A DNA stretch of 64,000 nt from Nitrospirota bacterium (GCA_963701855.1 CAVPBK010000013.1:1-64000); one strand, 5' to 3'; positions 27,001-33,000 are shown, counted from the first letter of the stretch. Numbers are program-made.

Positions 27001-30000
27001 GCTGGGAATGGCAAATCCAATCCCCTCTGACCCGCCGGTCCTTGAGAAAATAGCCGTATTGATTCCGATGAGTTCACCGCTCAGGTTGACCAACGCTCCT
27101 CCGGAATTGCCTGGATTAATCGCGGCGTCGGTCTGGATGAAATCTTCGTAGTCTGCAATTCCGACATTGCCTCGCCCCAAGGCGCTGATGATGCCCAGGG
27201 TCACGGTGGAACTTAATCCAAATGGACTGCCGACCGCCAATACCAGATCGCCAACCTGCAATTTCTCATACTCAGCCCATTTTAAGGATGGGAGATCTTT
27301 CGCCTCGATCTTGACCACCGCCAAGTCCGTCTTTGGGTCGGCTCCCACAACTTTCGCGCTGAATTCACGTCGATCGCTGAGTGTGACAGTGATCTGCGTA
27401 GCGCCTTCGACGACGTGGTTGTTGGTCACAATAAATCCGTTCGGATCAAAAATGACGCCTGATCCGGCGCTTTGATCCGGGCGTCCATGCCCTCCGCCTG
27501 GCGGCATCGGCGGAGGAGTCGGAAGTTCTCCCTCCGGCGCTTCCTCACCCGGAGGTCCACCAAATGGACCTGGTGGAACCGGCGACTTCCGGCCTCGTCC
27601 CCGGCCTTCTCCACCCCCGGTAACCGCTATATTCACCACAGCCGGCGTAACCTTCTTGACGATCTCCGAAAATCCTTGTGTCATCCCTGCAGGAACCCCG
27701 GCGGCAAAGGCTGTGGGTTCACTGGGCAGGCCAGTAAAGGCGACGGCACCCGTAACAAGACCGATACCTGCGACAAGACCTCGAATACTCCATCCCTTAC
27801 TCCGCGTGACCATATCAGCATTCCTCCACAGGGTTAATCGACGCGACCACATGAGCTGAACGGTACATTGTACACTATCCGTTCCGAGGGCTTCAAAGAC
27901 TAATAGTCCCCGCCGGCCCCTCACCCAAGAGAGCCCGAAGGAGACAACGCGCAGACTGCGCTAGATGAAGCGCGAGGACGGTTTGGTCTGTCTCGTTTGT
28001 TTGCTTGAACCAGATAGCCCAGATCAACCCTCCCCCGTTTCGCTTGTCATACGAAGCTATTTCGTCACCTACTACAATCTAGGTTTCCGGGCCTCTGCCT
28101 CGGATTCTAATACTCCGATCCAAGAGTTCCTGAGTTTCAGCGCCAGCCGCTTAGCCGCTTGCTCAAAGGACACGACACGGAGCGTATTCGGCGCACCCTC
28201 GTACGTCGGAGGCCAGATACGCCGCTCATCCTGCGGGCGCAGGTAGATAGCCGGATACCATTGATCGATCCTTGGTGCACTCGGACGATCCAGCGTGCCC
28301 CAGCCCCGCCCCTCGGCCTGCATCAAGATCTGATTGTGCCCCACATCCAACAGAGCGAATTCCAGCAGTGACCAGTTATCTCGACGAAATCCAGGCTGCC
28401 CGTGTGTGGTCAATCCTAGAAAGAACGTCATGGGATATTCCTGTTCGGTGCTAGAGACCACGACGACGGCTAGATAGTCGAGCCCACGCTGTCGCCCCAG
28501 TTCAGCAAACTGGGCCCAATCCCCATGCGGTTGCGGCCTGATACGGTCGGCAGAAATCACCTCTGTTATCGCCACAGGAATTGCACGAATGAGGTCCCGT
28601 TGCAGGCTTTCTCCGAGGCGAGCCAGCGCCTCTTCCGGCAGGCTCGGAGCTGCATCTGGCTCTGTCGCATCCGATACCACGACAAGCCCTGCCTGTAGTG
28701 GTCGCTGATTGATCTTCGCAAACGCATCGCCGTCGACCTGGCGCCATGAGGAGAGATAATCGCCAATCCGTGCAGGCGGAATAGCGGAGGCACAAGAAAC
28801 CAGGAATACCGCGCTGAACATGATACTGAATTGAGTGAGCACCCGGCGCATCCTCCATTCTCAGATCATCCAGGTCTATCCACCGCTTCATTCTCCACCG
28901 TTCTACGTTCGCTCCCCATCTGCGGATCTGTCAAGTCCAGCGGGCTAGTGCGGTAGTGGGCTATTTTGGTTTGTCCGCCTATTTGTTTTTGCAGTTTTAT
29001 TTCATTCGATTATAGGGGTAATAAAGGTAGACGCCGATGTCGGATGGATTAGAGGTTCCAGGGAAATAGGCCCCAACTTCAGTAATTCGTTCTTTATCGG
29101 TGAGTACATCATGATAGGTAGCGCATCCGTGAATGAACAGTTTGGCGGTCCTGTTTCTGACCATCTGCTCTTGTGCTTCAGACATGCCGTATGTCCCACT
29201 GTGGAGTTTAGTGCCCCAAACTTTATCAGGCGGAAGGATACCTACATGAACAGTCGCCTTTGGGCATTTGTAAGGGTCAAATTTAGGAATGTTAGTGAGA
29301 TCATATGGCCCGCTTGGATTTATGAAGGAAAACTCCCAGCCAGATTCAGCCTTGAGGGCTGGAGTCTTACCGATATTTTTAAAACCAATTTCGAAAGTGA
29401 TTTGGTCTTTGTCAATACTTGTAATTCCGAAACCGTCCACTGCAATCCATGCCGCAGTGGAGGCTGCAGCAGCATCAGCAGAGAGTTTAGTAGCCTCGGT
29501 GGTCTGTTTGATCTCACTCCAAATATACCAATTAATCATTACAGTAATGCCAACAAAAAAGGCGGTCGCCACTTCAAGACGGAATTTCCATTTATCTCTG
29601 GACTCTTGCCGTTTCTGATTGGCGTTGTAACTTTCTTCTATTCTGCGTGGAAAATTAACTTCGACAGTAGATGTAAGTGGTGGGTAGATATTTGGCTGGT
29701 TGCTGGGTTTTGTATTTTTCTGTACGGAGTCAGCGGTATTTTGACATGGAGCGTCTCCTTCTAATGCCATCGTTTTATTTTTGGCCTTCTTTTTTCGTCT
29801 TTTTGAATGCCTTGACATATTAAACGAGTTCGCCGAGTTCCCAAATGCGATCTGTAATGCCCGCTGCCATGGCTGGCGTCATACGAAGTGACCGATGAAT
29901 CAGACAGAAGTTGTAGCTCCAGAAGTAGAGCGCGACAGCAGCTTTCAGATTGGCCAACTTACGGGAGAAGGCCAAGGTGAGACGGTGAAATCTAGCAACC

Positions 30001-33000
30001 TTCATCCGCAAGGTCAAATTCTGCCGCTCAACATAGGACGTACAGACCTTGCTGTAATCCGGGATGCCCAACACTTCAGTAATCTCCGTTCCAGACACGC
30101 GAGGCGGGGCATAGCGGCCTGGTCCAGGATTCTGCGAGGCGTACAGCTTCGTGATTGTGGCATAGGTGGCACGATTGCCGAAGTATCTCGCAATGGCTGG
30201 ACTATATGGTCCCCACGCGTCGGTACTGACCTGGGTAGAACCTTCAATGCGTCGGCTCAGATCCTCGATGAAATGATGTGTATTGATCGAGTCCCGCTTG
30301 CCCACATGGAAGGCTGGAATGACTTTGGAGATAGGATCAAGCGCGATATATGTATACTGGTCGCCAAGCTCAGGATTGGCCTTCCGTTCCTCAGCTTTCA
30401 TCACACCGTCTTTTTTCCCAACGAACGTCCAGATTTCGTCACATTCAACAGCCTCACACCGAATGCCGCGCATGCGCTCATCCATCATTTGCTGACAGCG
30501 CGTTCCCACTTCCACCAACAGCTTCATGATGGTTTTCTTATGTACGCCGGTCATGCGGACTATAGAACGGATCGAACAGCCCTCAGTGAGAGCGGAGATA
30601 ACAGCCAACTTTTTTCTGCTTTCAGCACATTCATGGGACCTCCTTTGATTGGAGATCCCGGAAGGTGTATACTTTGAATCGCCTTCATGGGTGCGATCCG
30701 GTTCGACCTTCGCGGGACCTACCGGGTTGCGGTTGCTCGGTGCTAGTAACACCGGGCAACCATTCCTACTTACATGATGGTGGCGGGGGCCAGTCTCGAA
30801 CTGGCGACAGCCGGGTTAGTAATCCGGCGTTCTATCCCCTGAACTACCCCGCCATTCATCTTGCTCTTCTCCATTGTTTCAAATCCATCCTACTATTGTT
30901 TAAAATAATATATATAATTGTTGACAATAAGTCAACTGTTTGTTATATATATTTTAACTATTGTTATAAAAAGGATGGTGCAACCATGAAAAAGAGAGAA
31001 AAAAGCGAAAACATTCAGCACTTCATAGTCGATAATCTCATGATTAATAAGGCCAATGTATCTGAGGCGTCGTCATTTCAGATGTCTCATCTTGCTCGCC
31101 TAACGGCAGATCATTTTCAAATTTCACGGGCGGCGGTCGCAAGACACATTGCCCTATTAGTGAAAAGAAATATTCTTAGTGCCTCTGGTAACACGAAGGC
31201 ACGAATGTATGCGCTAGTTCCTTCAGTTGACGAAAGATTCAGTCTTTCAACAGTAGGGCTACAGGAGGATGTGGTTTGGCGTGAAAGAATCAGCCCTTTG
31301 TTCTCCAATGATACCCCTGAGAACATTCTCACAATCTGTAATTATGGTTTTACTGAGATGCTGAATAACGCAATTGACCATTCAGAGTCTGACACCGTGC
31401 ATATCACTGTTACGGTCGATGCAGCACAAATTTTTATTTGGATTCGTGACTTCGGAATAGGAGTTTTTAAAAAGCTAATGCGAGATCTTCATTTACATGA
31501 TGCGCGTCACGCTCTGTTAGAGCTAAGCAAGGGCAAGCTAACCACTGCTGCGGGTGGGCATACCGGACAAGGGATATTTTTTACTTCGCGCATATTTGAT
31601 GAATATATGTTTTGGGCCAATGGGTTCTCATTTTGTCGCTTTGGCAAGGATGATGATTGGTTATTTGAGCCCAAAGATCCCCAAAAGGATCCTGACGTAG
31701 GCACGCTAGTTATGATGAGAATTTCTCTAAGGGCCACACAAACAGCGGGCGAAATTATGAGCCAATATTCATCAGAATTGCATGATTATGGATTTACGAA
31801 AACCCATGTTCCATTGGTGTTGGCCAAATATGAGGGAGAACAGTTGGTTTCTCGGTCACAAGCAAAGCGATTGATGTTACGCGTGGATCAGTTCAAGGAA
31901 GTCATGTTGGATTTTACGGGTATTACTACTATTGGGCAGGCGTTCGCGGATCAAATATTTAGGGTGTTTCAAGGCGAGCATCCAAAACTATTAATCGTTC
32001 CGATTAATGAGAATGAGGAAGTAAAGAAAATGATTACTCGGGCGAAGGGAGAGACGGTTGTAGAGCTTACCCCTTCCCTTTTTGATGCCATTAAGGATGA
32101 TCCAACCACATGAGTGATTTTCAAAATAGCCCACTACCGTCTAGAGCCCGCTTCCTTGCAATCCTGTCACAGGCTCGCTACCATATTTCGTGTAGATTCT
32201 GGTCTAATACCACGGTACTTCACCACAACAAGGCTGGTTTCCTGTGCCCTGGCAAAAAGCTTCAGGCTCCATTCAATGGTCGATCATCATTCCAGCTCAT
32301 AACGAGGCTGCCCGCATTTTGCCCTATCTTCGAAGCATCACCTCATACATGCAAGACCGAGGACAGCCTTACGAAGTTCTCGTGGTTGACGATGGCAGCA
32401 TCGATGCCACGGCTTCCATTGTGGAAACCCTGGCTTCTACGGCCCCAGAAGTTCAATTACTGAGGATACCACTGCGCCGAGGTAAAGGCGCAGCCGTACG
32501 GCGAGGGATGCACGCCGCCGTCGGACGACTACAACTCTTTACCGATGCAGACGGCGCCACTCCAATTCAGGAACTCGCCCGGCTTGAGGAAGCCATGGCG
32601 AATGGAGCTGACGTGGCCATCGGATCGCGCTCACTTGCCTCCCGGTTACCGGACTATGCAGTCCAGGCTCGCTGGTATCGGACCATTTTGAGCAGCCTGT
32701 TCAATTCACTCATACAGAAGAAGGGCCTCAGAGGGATCGCCGACACGCAATGTGGATTCAAACTGTTCCGTCAAACTGTGGCAGCAGACCTCTTTGGAGT
32801 CTCTTCAATCGACGGCTATGGCTTCGACCTCGAACTGCTCTATGTGGCGCAACAACGCGGATACCGCATTGCAGAAATTCCGGTGAATTGGTCCCATCAG
32901 CCCGGCTCAAAATTTCGCGTCTTCAGAGATGGGGTCGCCATGCTGCGCGAATTGGCTGTGATCAGACGGAATAGGGCCAAGGGCTGCTATGCGGCTCCAT

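What a model noticed while it worked through the whole genome (the two positions that open the first line are those of the whole stretch)
29820..32113. Arg-type tRNA with serine anticodon ACU riding with an IS1-family transposase
A 76-nt class-I tRNA gene with anticodon ACU (it would read the Ser codons AGU/AGC) but with the D-loop GGAUAGA/A20, C35, U36 and A73 marks that in this genome only the five tRNA-Arg genes carry sits 25 nt upstream of a single-copy IS1-family transposase gene and back to back with an HTH-GHKL ATPase-STAS (DUF4325) gene. I read it as a mobile module that carries its own non-standard tRNA, most likely charged by ArgRS, which either mis-reads AGY codons as Arg or serves the transposase as a tRNA-shaped RNA partner or processing signal. 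A tRNA-transposase unit whose short-armed tRNA keeps an RCU anticodon from Nitrospirota to Acidobacteriota, Sumerlaeota and Planctomycetota has not been describe [...]
Evidence so far: ARAGORN: tRNA C13:30778-30853(-), anticodon ACU, no long variable arm, CCA encoded. Same tRNA type (ACU, GCU or an 8-nt loop GCUA) directly upstream of a g04244 homologue in 12 Nitrospiraceae loci (41-94% aa identity); 7 of 85 genus genomes and 19 of 401 order genomes hit with the tRNA as query. Outside the phylum, of 24 IS1-like loci searched with a covariance model built on 13 of these tRNAs, full-length matches with anticodon GCU lie 50-680 nt upstream of the transposase in a Planctomycetota (L039, 79 bits), an Acidobacteria (L046, 75 bits; missed by ARAGORN) and a Sumerlaeota locus (L031, 71 bits), against 36 bits for ordinary tRNA-Glu/Ala in the same loci. 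Cloverleaf kept by covariation [...]
(Added by a program. Inside this text positions count along the whole contig: contig position 1 is position 1 of the stretch shown here. "Call 12" and the like, gene names such as g00115 and contig names such as C1 are that model's own, and its searches are not shown. The text may have been shortened before it was handed on; [...] marks where a part breaks off. The agent that wrote the report below was given it as the finding of a first reader that could run no searches.)

Follow-up and report, generated by a model that had tools for sequence, protein, structure and literature searches.

The report
Jumping gene carrying an off-code tRNA
A 3.2-kb jumping gene in a soil Nitrospira genome carries, as a fixed part of itself, a well-formed transfer RNA built like an arginine tRNA but able to pair with serine codons, one case of a wider habit of this transposon family of carrying tRNAs whose body and anticodon disagree.

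Summary
The tRNA (30778-30853, minus strand, anticodon ACU) is real. It lies inside a 3,187-bp IS1-family insertion sequence (28952-32138) together with the transposase gene, the HTH-ATPase-STAS gene and a 273-aa ORF. The element has perfect 17-bp inverted ends and a 9-bp target duplication. The empty site is seen in a 95-96% identical relative and in soil metagenome contigs.

The tRNA is derived from tRNA-Arg(UCU). A model built only from the transposon-borne copies ranks the host's Arg tRNAs first. All 34 copies of this type keep a purine at position 34, then C35 and U36. In the Nitrospira-type lineage 25 of 25 assessable elements carry it.

Across the wider family, 36 of 109 loci carry a tRNA-like gene upstream of the transposase. 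Wherever identity marks can be read, they disagree with the anticodon.

AGY codons of the transposase are neither enriched nor avoided, so the role is open. My best reading (0.4) is an ArgRS-chargeable, co-transcribed off-code tRNA that acts in trans. A purely cis processing role is the main rival.

This scan noted related transposon-borne odd tRNAs before on other DNA. In print I found only a loose remark (Mukai 2017).

The parts
28952..32138 (-). Complete IS1-family insertion sequence (3,187 bp) with passenger genes; strand given is that of the transposase
   Evidence: Perfect inverted ends. Low-GC island, 0.37-0.48 against 0.52-0.61 outside. Flanks are contiguous in G074 at 95-96% identity. 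Contigs of runs X1 and X3 join 28944 to 32141. The same ends occur in 9 Nitrospira loci.
28952..28968 (+). Terminal inverted repeat GGTAGTGGGCTATTTTG (end distal to the transposase start)
   Evidence: 18 nt with the preceding C, 100% complementary; searches find the same motif at both ends of related elements.
32122..32138 (-). Terminal inverted repeat (end next to the ATPase-STAS gene)
28943..28951 (.). Target-site duplication, left copy GGCTAGTGC
   Evidence: The empty site in G074 reads GGCTAGAGC. Contigs of X1 and X2 read A at 28949, which makes this copy identical to the empty site.
32139..32147 (.). Target-site duplication, right copy GTCTAGAGC (1 mismatch to the empty site)
30778..30853 (-). 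Class-I tRNA with anticodon ACU, derived from tRNA-Arg(UCU): A20, C35, U36, A37, A38, A73, CCA encoded, A31.C39 mismatch
30907..30935 (-). Sigma-70-like promoter TTGACT-17-TATATT about 55 nt upstream of the tRNA
   Evidence: 10 of 12 matches. TTGAC is kept in the 4 elements that carry the ATPase-STAS passenger.
30920..30936 (.). Palindrome GTTGACttattGTCAAC overlapping the -35 hexamer; a candidate operator for the divergent HTH protein (inferred)
   Evidence: nearly identical in L003.
30635..30777 (-). Conserved structured leader between the tRNA and the transposase start. Its last hairpin (30635-30659) pairs CUCC with the Shine-Dalgarno GGAGG (30639-30643).
   Evidence: Fold -62 kcal/mol, z -4.19, 0 of 200 shuffles as low. 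Conserved in 9 copies with compensatory changes, including L005, L028 and L032. No terminator-like site between tRNA and ATG.
29820..30752 (-). IS1-family transposase ORF (HTH plus DDE). The canonical ATG at 30632-30634 is out of frame because of the A6 run at 30610-30615; the long ORF from GTG 30752 stays open.
   Evidence: A contig of run X1 covers 30436-31316 without gaps.
30986..32113 (+). Passenger gene: winged-HTH, GHKL ATPase (HATPase_c_2) and STAS-like DUF4325; transcribed divergently from the tRNA
   Evidence: Homologues sit in the same place in L002, L003, L010 and L021. No PADLOC match.
28997..29818 (-). Passenger ORF of 273 aa with no family match, between the transposase and the IS end
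   Evidence: a homologue in the same place in L004.

Best explanation
Window 28952-32138 is an IS1-family insertion sequence that carries passenger genes and, as a fixed module, its own tRNA. A sigma-70-like promoter inside the element, next to a palindrome and the divergent HTH-ATPase-STAS gene, reads into the tRNA. With no terminator, transcription continues into a 143-nt conserved leader whose last hairpin hides the ribosome-binding site of the transposase gene. The tRNA is a full cloverleaf descended from tRNA-Arg(UCU) in which only the wobble base has become a purine (ACU here, GCU or ACU in all relatives). I infer that it is cut out of the transcript by the host's tRNA-processing enzymes. 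I also infer that it is charged with arginine by ArgRS, which in E. coli reads A20, C35 and U/G36 but not base 34 (recalled knowledge), and that it can pair with the serine codons AGU/AGC. On this reading it is a transposon-borne 'off-code' tRNA acting in trans. It is one type among several in this IS family, the others being alanine-type bodies with CCA, UUA or CUG anticodons and long-arm bodies with UAU, UAA, UAC, UUA or CUA. Shown: the element, its mobility, the position of the tRNA inside it, its Arg-type body, and strict conservation of R34-C35-U36. Inferred: co-transcription, processing, charging and decoding. What the element gains from it is not known.
For: - Element and mobility.
- Real tRNA: Rfam 57.1 bits. 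94.8% of cells paired and 15 of 21 pairs with double changes, against 0 of 500 shuffles. U8, A14, G53, T54, C56, A58 and C61 are invariant.
- Arg-type body: GGATAGA occurs only in the 5 Arg tRNAs and this one of 45. Model R1, built from 12 transposon-borne tRNAs, scores host Arg-UCU 84.3, Arg-CCU 79.3 and Arg-ACG 77.7, then Ile 77.1. In the 85 genus genomes the top matches outside IS copies are chromosomal tRNA-Arg(UCU), 9 of 9 checked.
- Anticodon kept: ACU in 12 and GCU in 22 of 34 copies, never a pyrimidine at 34. By my reading of the printed sequences, A follows G18G19 in 30 of 33.
- Fixed module: 25 of 25 assessable Nitrospira-type elements carry it. It is present with either kind of upstream passenger. 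It occurs in at least 3 places of the transposase tree (quick tree).
- Family-wide mismatch of body and anticodon: G3.U70 plus A73 with CCA (L014), UUA (L067) and CUG (L070). Long-arm bodies carry UAU, UAA, UAC, UUA, CUA and GAA.
- Promoter present and no terminator.
Against: - No charging or decoding test was possible.
- AGY is not enriched in transposases of RCU-type elements: 0.34 of Ser codons against 0.36 in 85 others.
- In L111, L115 and L022, AGY sits on columns that are Ser in 82-84 of 85 relatives. Efficient Ser-to-Arg reading would therefore damage the element's own enzyme.
- Within the Nitrospira lineage most alternatives at AGY columns are Thr, Cys, Ser or Ala (74 of 95 cells). Arg or Lys make up 14 of 95.
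- AGY columns of the ATPase passenger show no Arg pattern.
- Many copies have imperfect anticodon stems: A31.C39 here, and 6 copies that ARAGORN reads with an 8-nt loop.
- Mukai et al. found six allo-tRNA(UAU) variants inactive in E. coli translation (section 16 read).
- 73 of 109 family loci have no tRNA-like gene. Four plasmid copies in cultured bacteria have none either. Transposition therefore does not need a tRNA.
- No benefit to the element is identified.
Confidence: 0.4

Rival explanations
1. Cis-acting tRNA-shaped element. The tRNA matters as the 5' part of the transposase transcript. RNase P and 3' processing cut it off and release a leader with a defined 5' end, which folds to hide the ribosome-binding site. 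The tRNA promoter supplies transcription. Charging and decoding are irrelevant.
For: 32 of 36 tRNA-like genes lie on the transposase strand. Spacing is constant at 139-212 nt in RCU-type elements of two distant transposase clades. There is no terminator between the tRNA and the ATG. The leader is highly conserved, with compensatory changes and an SD-sequestering hairpin. In L005 a tRNA with a different acceptor and D arm sits at exactly the same place.
Against: It does not explain why R34, C35 and U36 are kept in 34 of 34 copies, or why A20 and U36-A37-A38 are kept in most. It does not explain why every tRNA of the family that can be classified is off-code rather than ordinary. 4 of 36 lie on the opposite strand. 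The leaders of L013, L111 and L115 are not homologous and fold weakly, z -0.4 to -1.8.
Confidence: 0.25
2. Non-translational use of a chargeable tRNA. It could act as a decoy or substrate for tRNA-targeting toxins or defence proteins that such elements carry or meet, or as a sensor of charging state. The anticodon would then be kept off the host's code so that ribosomes do not consume it.
For: aaRS marks are conserved without any codon link to the element's genes. Passengers of related elements are often defence or toxin-antitoxin genes: AbiU/AIPR in L018 and DUF433 plus PIN_10 in L025, and a RES-Xre pair beside a plasmid copy. [quoted passage not shown]
Against: No protein partner other than the transposase is constant, and passengers differ between copies that carry the same tRNA. 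A GCU anticodon is not off the ribosome's reach. No PADLOC match for the ATPase-STAS protein.
Confidence: 0.15
3. Decaying captured gene. An IS that picked up a chromosomal tRNA-Arg gene now carries it as drifting, functionless cargo.
For: Anticodon-stem defects in several copies. This copy's transposase start is frameshifted. A truncated tRNA sits in the decayed element L021.
Against: Stems co-vary. The anticodon is fixed as RCU in 34 of 34 copies across transposases down to about 42-50% identity. The tRNA is at most 71% identical to any host tRNA. It is retained with different passengers.
Confidence: 0.07
4. Private decoder. The tRNA supplies decoding of codons that the transposase gene uses specially, as seems to hold for the UAU-type elements.
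For: In 5 UAU-type elements the transposase has 3-8 ATA codons against a median of 1 in 85 others. These fall mostly at columns that are Ile, Val or Leu elsewhere.
Against: For the RCU type, AGY is 0.34 of Ser codons against 0.36. The host has its own long-arm tRNA-Ser(GCU). The tRNA lacks the long arm and G73 of Ser tRNAs, so it could not supply Ser.
Confidence: 0.05

Closest known systems
IS1-family insertion sequences, single-ORF members with passenger genes (ISfinder's 'ISMhu11' group and 'transporter IS'; these names are recalled, and my search for them found no description)
   Same: DDE transposase with an IS1 Pfam domain, ends that start GGT..., a 9-bp target duplication, and cargo between the ends.
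   Different: There is no insA/insB frameshift architecture, and the Nitrospira lineage has no N-terminal zinc finger. It carries a tRNA gene as a conserved module, which I did not find described for IS1.
allo-tRNAs and other irregular tRNAs of soil bacteria (Mukai et al. 2017, PMC5389517; passages and section 16 read)
   Same: tRNAs whose anticodon disagrees with their identity marks, found in Acidobacteria and soil metagenomes. One allo-tRNA(UAU) pseudogene overlaps a transposon-related ORF. [quoted passage not shown] Relatives of this IS carry such long-arm UAU tRNAs.
   Different: The window's tRNA has the ordinary 7/5 shape, a short variable arm and an Arg-type body. That paper names neither the IS family nor this tRNA type.
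tRNA-Arg(UCU) (argU type), the chromosomal gene next to tRNA-Pro(UGG) in this genus
   Same: D-arm GGAUAGA, C35, U36, A37, A38, A73. It is the best non-IS match of the model built from the IS tRNAs.
   Different: Base 34 is A or G instead of U. Overall identity to the host gene is 65%. It is carried by a transposon.
tRNAProX/ProRSx 'deliberate mistranslation' tRNAs of Streptomycetaceae (PMC10404621; search listing and three passages seen)
   Same: Natural bacterial tRNAs whose identity (Pro) and anticodon (Ala, Asn, Thr) disagree.
   Different: Those come with a dedicated synthetase gene and are not reported on transposons: 0 occurrences of 'transpos' or 'mobile' in the text. Here there is no synthetase gene in the element.

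Membership tests
IS1 family insertion sequence | DDE transposase of the IS1 type | tested here: met
   Pfam DDE_Tnp_IS1 at 29.5 bits, above the cut-off of 24.1. NCBIfam IS1 is the best family, but its 69.2 bits are below the cut-off of 100. Homologues on plasmids are annotated as IS1 family transposase.
IS1 family insertion sequence | Terminal inverted repeats and a target duplication of about 8-9 bp | tested here: met
   17-bp perfect ends and a 9-bp duplication with one mismatch per copy against the empty site.
IS1 family insertion sequence | Classical two-ORF insA/insB arrangement with -1 frameshift and an N-terminal zinc finger (recalled for IS1 of E. coli) | tested here: not met
   Single ORF that starts at the HTH in 7 homologues. 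A zinc-finger N-terminus is present only in distant relatives such as L012 and L014. This places the element in the single-ORF branch, not in classical IS1.
Canonical class-I tRNA | 7/5 cloverleaf, conserved tertiary nucleotides, 7-nt anticodon loop with U33 | tested here: met
   One A31.C39 mismatch at the foot of the anticodon stem.
tRNA-Arg (identity for ArgRS) | A20, C35, U36 or G36, A/G73 (E. coli rules, recalled) | tested here: met
   All four are present in the window's tRNA. The model built from IS copies ranks the host Arg tRNAs first.
tRNA-Arg (identity for ArgRS) | Aminoacylation with arginine | not testable with these tools
   Needs a charging assay.
tRNA-Arg (decoding) | Anticodon that reads an Arg codon | tested here: not met
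   ACU pairs with AGU; relatives have GCU or ACU.
Bacterial tRNA-Ser | Long variable arm and G73 | tested here: not met
   5-nt variable loop and A73. The host's five Ser tRNAs are 83-92 nt long, and four of the five have G73.
allo-tRNA (Mukai 2017) | 8/4 or 9/3 acceptor/T-stem composition | tested here: not met
   The window's tRNA is 7/5. Relatives of the IS (L018, L079, L092) do carry long-arm UAU tRNAs with extended acceptor stems.
T-box or other known leader RNA | Match to a curated RNA family | tested here: not met
   No Rfam match other than tRNA in 28000-33000 at E<=1.

The most novel reading that the evidence does not exclude
A whole branch of the IS1 family carries chargeable tRNAs whose anticodons have been moved off their own amino acid. 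Each uses a synthetase that does not check the changed bases: ArgRS with base 34, AlaRS with G3.U70, and SerRS or LeuRS with the long arm. These transposons would then spread small, heritable changes of the genetic code between phyla: Ser to Arg at AGY, Trp or stop to Ala, and Ile, Leu or Val to Ser. The tRNA would be tied to the transposase operon so that mistranslation and transposition are switched on together.
Probability: 0.3. Interest if true: 0.85.

Novelty: new variant of a known kind. Interest (0 to 1): 0.72.

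Why it matters
Insertion sequences are thought of as minimal elements that encode only what they need in order to move. 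Here a widespread soil-bacterial IS lineage keeps a well-folded tRNA with an arginine-type body and a serine-reading anticodon. Its relatives keep other tRNAs whose bodies and anticodons disagree, including nonsense-suppressor anticodons.

If these tRNAs are charged and used, transposons are natural vectors of mistranslation or codon reassignment. That bears on how genetic codes change and on how mobile elements manipulate their hosts. If they are not used in translation, they are a new kind of tRNA-shaped regulatory part of a transposase operon.

Either way the system can be tested with standard assays. It also offers natural scaffolds for tRNAs that read codons other than their own.

Tried and rejected
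- **Expression data.** No RNA holder is listed for the element, so nothing can be said about expression.
- **Second tRNA in the leader.** A search with model R1 with filters off finds only the one tRNA in 28900-32200.
- **Leader hairpin as anticodon-arm mimic.** The window's hairpin loop UUACUAG resembles the tRNA's anticodon loop. The loop varies among copies (CUGAUAA, CUUGUAA, CGCGAA), and the resemblance tracks shared ancestry. Dropped.
- **T-box-like specifier codon.** No conserved AGC or AGU in a loop, and no Rfam hit. Dropped.
- **Recoding of AGY as Arg.** Not supported in the transposase or in the ATPase passenger.
- **In-frame stops matching suppressor-type tRNAs.** Only L067 has one: TAA at a conserved Tyr column, beside a tRNA with UUA anticodon. 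L053, L062, L096 and L110 have none. This is one case and proves nothing.
- **Recent capture from the host.** The tRNA is at most 71% identical to any host tRNA.
- **IS ends in other loci.** None found for L013, L111, L032, L060, L070, L096, L110 or L112, by exact seeds or by the GGTAGTG motif. Whether their tRNAs lie inside an element stays open.
- **Cultured hosts.** The four best plasmid homologues have no tRNA. Their upstream HTH proteins are HTH_3/Peptidase_M78, not ATPase-STAS.
- **Tree.** The careful run did not finish within the time limit, so the quick tree was used.
- **Literature.** Searches for IS plus tRNA passenger, allo-tRNA plus transposase, ACU anticodon, and ISMhu11 found no description of this arrangement.

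Full report
**What is there**

ARAGORN finds a 76-nt tRNA at 30778-30853 on the minus strand, with anticodon ACT, a short variable arm and an encoded CCA. Rfam's tRNA model scores it 57.1 bits against a gathering score of 29. It is the only RNA-family match in 28000-33000 at E<=1. The one blemish is an A31.C39 mismatch at the foot of the anticodon stem. Downstream on the same strand lies an ORF (29820-30752) with a Pfam IS1 transposase domain. Upstream and divergent lies a winged-HTH, GHKL-ATPase and STAS-like (DUF4325) gene. The genome holds 45 tRNAs, including a normal long-arm tRNA-Ser(GCU) and five tRNA-Arg. It holds only this one transposase of the kind.

**The tRNA is inside a transposon**

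- A perfect 18-nt inverted repeat (28951-28968 and 32122-32139) encloses a low-GC island, 0.37-0.48 against 0.52-0.61 outside.
- The ends read GGTAGTGGGCTATTTTG. The same ends flank the homologous transposase in nine Nitrospira loci. GGTAGTG-type ends flank distant relatives.
- In genome G074 the two flanks are 95-96% identical to the window and contiguous. The empty site reads GGCTAGAGC.
- In the window this 9-mer stands on both sides of the element, with one mismatch each (28943-28951 and 32139-32147).
- Contigs of two public soil runs join 28944 to 32141, while other contigs of the same runs cover the element. Two runs read A at 28949, which makes the left duplicate perfect.
- So 28952-32138 is a 3,187-bp IS1-type element that is present or absent in natural populations.
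- It holds four parts: a 273-aa ORF, the transposase, the tRNA and the ATPase-STAS gene.

**Transcription unit**

- A TTGACT-17-TATATT promoter lies about 55 nt upstream of the tRNA. It overlaps the palindrome GTTGACttattGTCAAC.
- The TTGAC hexamer is kept in the four elements that carry the ATPase-STAS passenger.
- No terminator-like site lies between the tRNA and the transposase start.
- In seven homologues translation starts at AAGGAGG-n5-ATG (MNVLKAEKK...), about 143 nt after the tRNA.
- The stretch between is more conserved than the tRNA itself and folds strongly: -62 kcal/mol, z -4.19.
- Its last hairpin pairs CUCC with the GGAGG of the ribosome-binding site. L028 and L032 keep this hairpin through compensatory changes.
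- In the window the canonical ATG is out of frame, because GAAAAGAAG has become GAAAAAAG. An extra A in the hairpin loop keeps the long upstream ORF open. A short-read contig confirms both, with no gaps over 30436-31316.
- I cannot tell whether this copy is inactive, uses the upstream GTG, or relies on slippage.

**What kind of tRNA**

- The D-arm motif GGATAGA occurs in exactly six of the 45 tRNAs: the five Arg and this one.
- I built a covariance model (R1) from 12 transposon-borne tRNAs only.
- In the host genome R1 scores the IS tRNA 91.8 bits, then Arg-UCU 84.3, Arg-CCU 79.3 and Arg-ACG 77.7, then Ile 77.1 and Met 77.0.
- Across 85 genomes of the genus the best matches after the IS copies are the chromosomal tRNA-Arg(UCU) genes, beside tRNA-Pro in 5 of the 9 checked. 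All nine checked were tRNA-Arg(UCU).
- Part of this ranking comes from the shared C35-U36-A37-A38, so it is supportive rather than decisive.
- Plain identity to any host tRNA is at most 71%, so this is not a recent copy.

**Conservation**

- The cloverleaf is kept by covariation.
- Metagenome relatives bring the total to 34 tRNAs of this type: 12 ACU and 22 GCU. None has a pyrimidine at 34 or a change at 35 or 36. Six have a bulged anticodon stem that ARAGORN reads as an 8-nt loop.
- An A follows G18G19 in 30 of the 33 whose sequence I saw. The exceptions are L005, L013 and L171.
- In the Nitrospira-type lineage (transposase 80% identical or more), 25 of 25 elements with enough upstream sequence carry the tRNA. 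In L178 it lies 1,246 nt upstream.
- The tRNA is there whether the upstream passenger is the ATPase-STAS gene or a 175-185-aa coiled-coil ORF.
- In L005 a tRNA with another acceptor and D arm, still ACU, sits at the same place next to the same leader.

**Spread outside Nitrospira**

- GCU tRNAs of the Arg type lie 139-212 nt upstream of transposases that are only 42-50% identical: L013, L111 and L115. In L115 the tRNA is inside clear GGTAGTG ends.
- L032, labelled Acidobacteria, is the Nitrospira-type element with the same leader.
- In L022 the second copy in the same genome shares only the transposase part. The candidate left end that would enclose the tRNA has three mismatches.
- A quick tree puts the RCU type in at least three places.

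**The wider family**

- 598 or more relatives exist in the species-level genome collection.
- Of 109 loci with enough upstream sequence, 36 have a tRNA-like gene within 1.4 kb upstream. 32 of these are on the transposase strand. About 1.6 would be expected from this genome's tRNA density.
- I could read identity marks in 26 or more of them, and in none do the marks fit the anticodon. These are my readings of marks recalled from E. coli rules.
  - L014, L067 and L070 have G3.U70 and A73 (alanine marks) with CCA, UUA and CUG.
  - Long-arm bodies with G73 carry UAU, UAA and UAC.
  - Long-arm bodies with A73 carry UUA and CUA.
  - Metagenome copies add GAA on a long-arm body and CGU on an A20 body.
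- Several of these tRNAs lie inside clear IS ends: L014, L018, L053, L062, L067, L079 and L092.
- Passengers vary: AbiU/AIPR, DUF433 plus PIN_10, and HTH regulators.

**Function tests**

- For the UAU type I reproduce a codon link. Five such transposases have 3-8 ATA codons against a median of 1 in 85 others, mostly at Ile/Val/Leu columns.
- For the RCU type there is no such link. AGY is 0.34 of Ser codons against 0.36.
- In L111, L115 and L022, AGY sits on columns that are Ser in 82-84 of 85 relatives.
- Within the Nitrospira lineage, one AGT column alternates only with Arg (CGT, AGA), and two variable columns mix AGY with Arg or Lys. Even so, 74 of 95 alternative cells are Thr, Cys, Ser or Ala.
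- The ATPase passenger shows no Arg pattern.
- So the element's own genes neither need nor avoid the codons this tRNA would read.

**Reading**

The strict retention of a full tRNA fold, of the ArgRS marks and of purine-34 argues that charging and the anticodon both matter. That is why I rank an active, Arg-charged, AGY-pairing tRNA first (0.4). The strand bias, the fixed spacing and the conserved leader argue that it is also, or instead, a cis part of the transposase transcript (0.25). A non-translational role of a charged tRNA (0.15), drift of a captured gene (0.07) and a private decoder (0.05) follow. None of these could be tested beyond sequence.

**Known and new**

- Mukai et al. 2017 described allo-tRNAs with mismatched anticodons in soil bacteria. 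[quoted passage not shown]
- A 2020 review repeats this.
- The tRNAProX family shows that natural mistranslating tRNAs exist, but with their own synthetase and no transposon.
- I found no paper that ties an IS family to such tRNAs or that describes an Arg-type RCU tRNA. Supplements were not consulted.
- Earlier notes of this scan report the UAU type in Planctomycetes, an ACU tRNA in an IS1 element of a Dehalococcoidia-like genome, and a Leu-type tRNA with a Ser anticodon on a small element. The phenomenon has therefore been met before on other DNA.

Noticed in passing
window 30610-30650 (minus strand): The transposase's canonical start is frameshifted. The A-run has 6 A where 7 homologues read GAAAAGAAG. 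One extra A in the loop of the SD hairpin keeps the upstream GTG ORF in frame. After the A-run, the codon in the ATG frame is AGU, the codon this tRNA would read best. A short-read contig confirms the sequence.
   Followed up: partly
L040 (genome G054) at the site homologous to window 28943-28951: The same target site holds a different insertion of about 290 bp. It has its own inverted ends and a long G/C-rich palindrome and looks like a MITE.
   Followed up: no
L067:3301-3375 and its transposase: A Chthoniobacter element carries, on the opposite strand, a tRNA-like gene with G3.U70, A73 and anticodon UUA. Its transposase has one in-frame TAA at a column that is Tyr in relatives. This is one case only.
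   Followed up: partly
L014:3646-3721: [quoted passage not shown]
   Followed up: no
L022:3231-3396: Two odd tRNA-like genes in tandem (GCU, then a class-I-like UAU) lie upstream of a Planctomycetota copy. This recalls the polycistrons of irregular tRNAs in Mukai et al..
   Followed up: no
own genome C2:64184-64266: An 83-nt second tRNA-Ser(CGA), with a GGAGGG...CCCTCC acceptor and a short extra arm, exists beside the normal 90-nt one on C8. It may be an unusual-shape Ser tRNA.
   Followed up: no
own genome C3:217624-217698: A copy of the 3' part of tRNA-Phe (its last 46 nt match the gene on C9) is probably the attachment-site remnant of an integrated element.
   Followed up: no
window 30920-30936 and 30986-32113: The palindrome over the -35 hexamer sits between the tRNA and the divergent HTH-ATPase-STAS gene. 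This suggests that the passenger protein regulates both promoters. The protein has no PADLOC match.
   Followed up: partly
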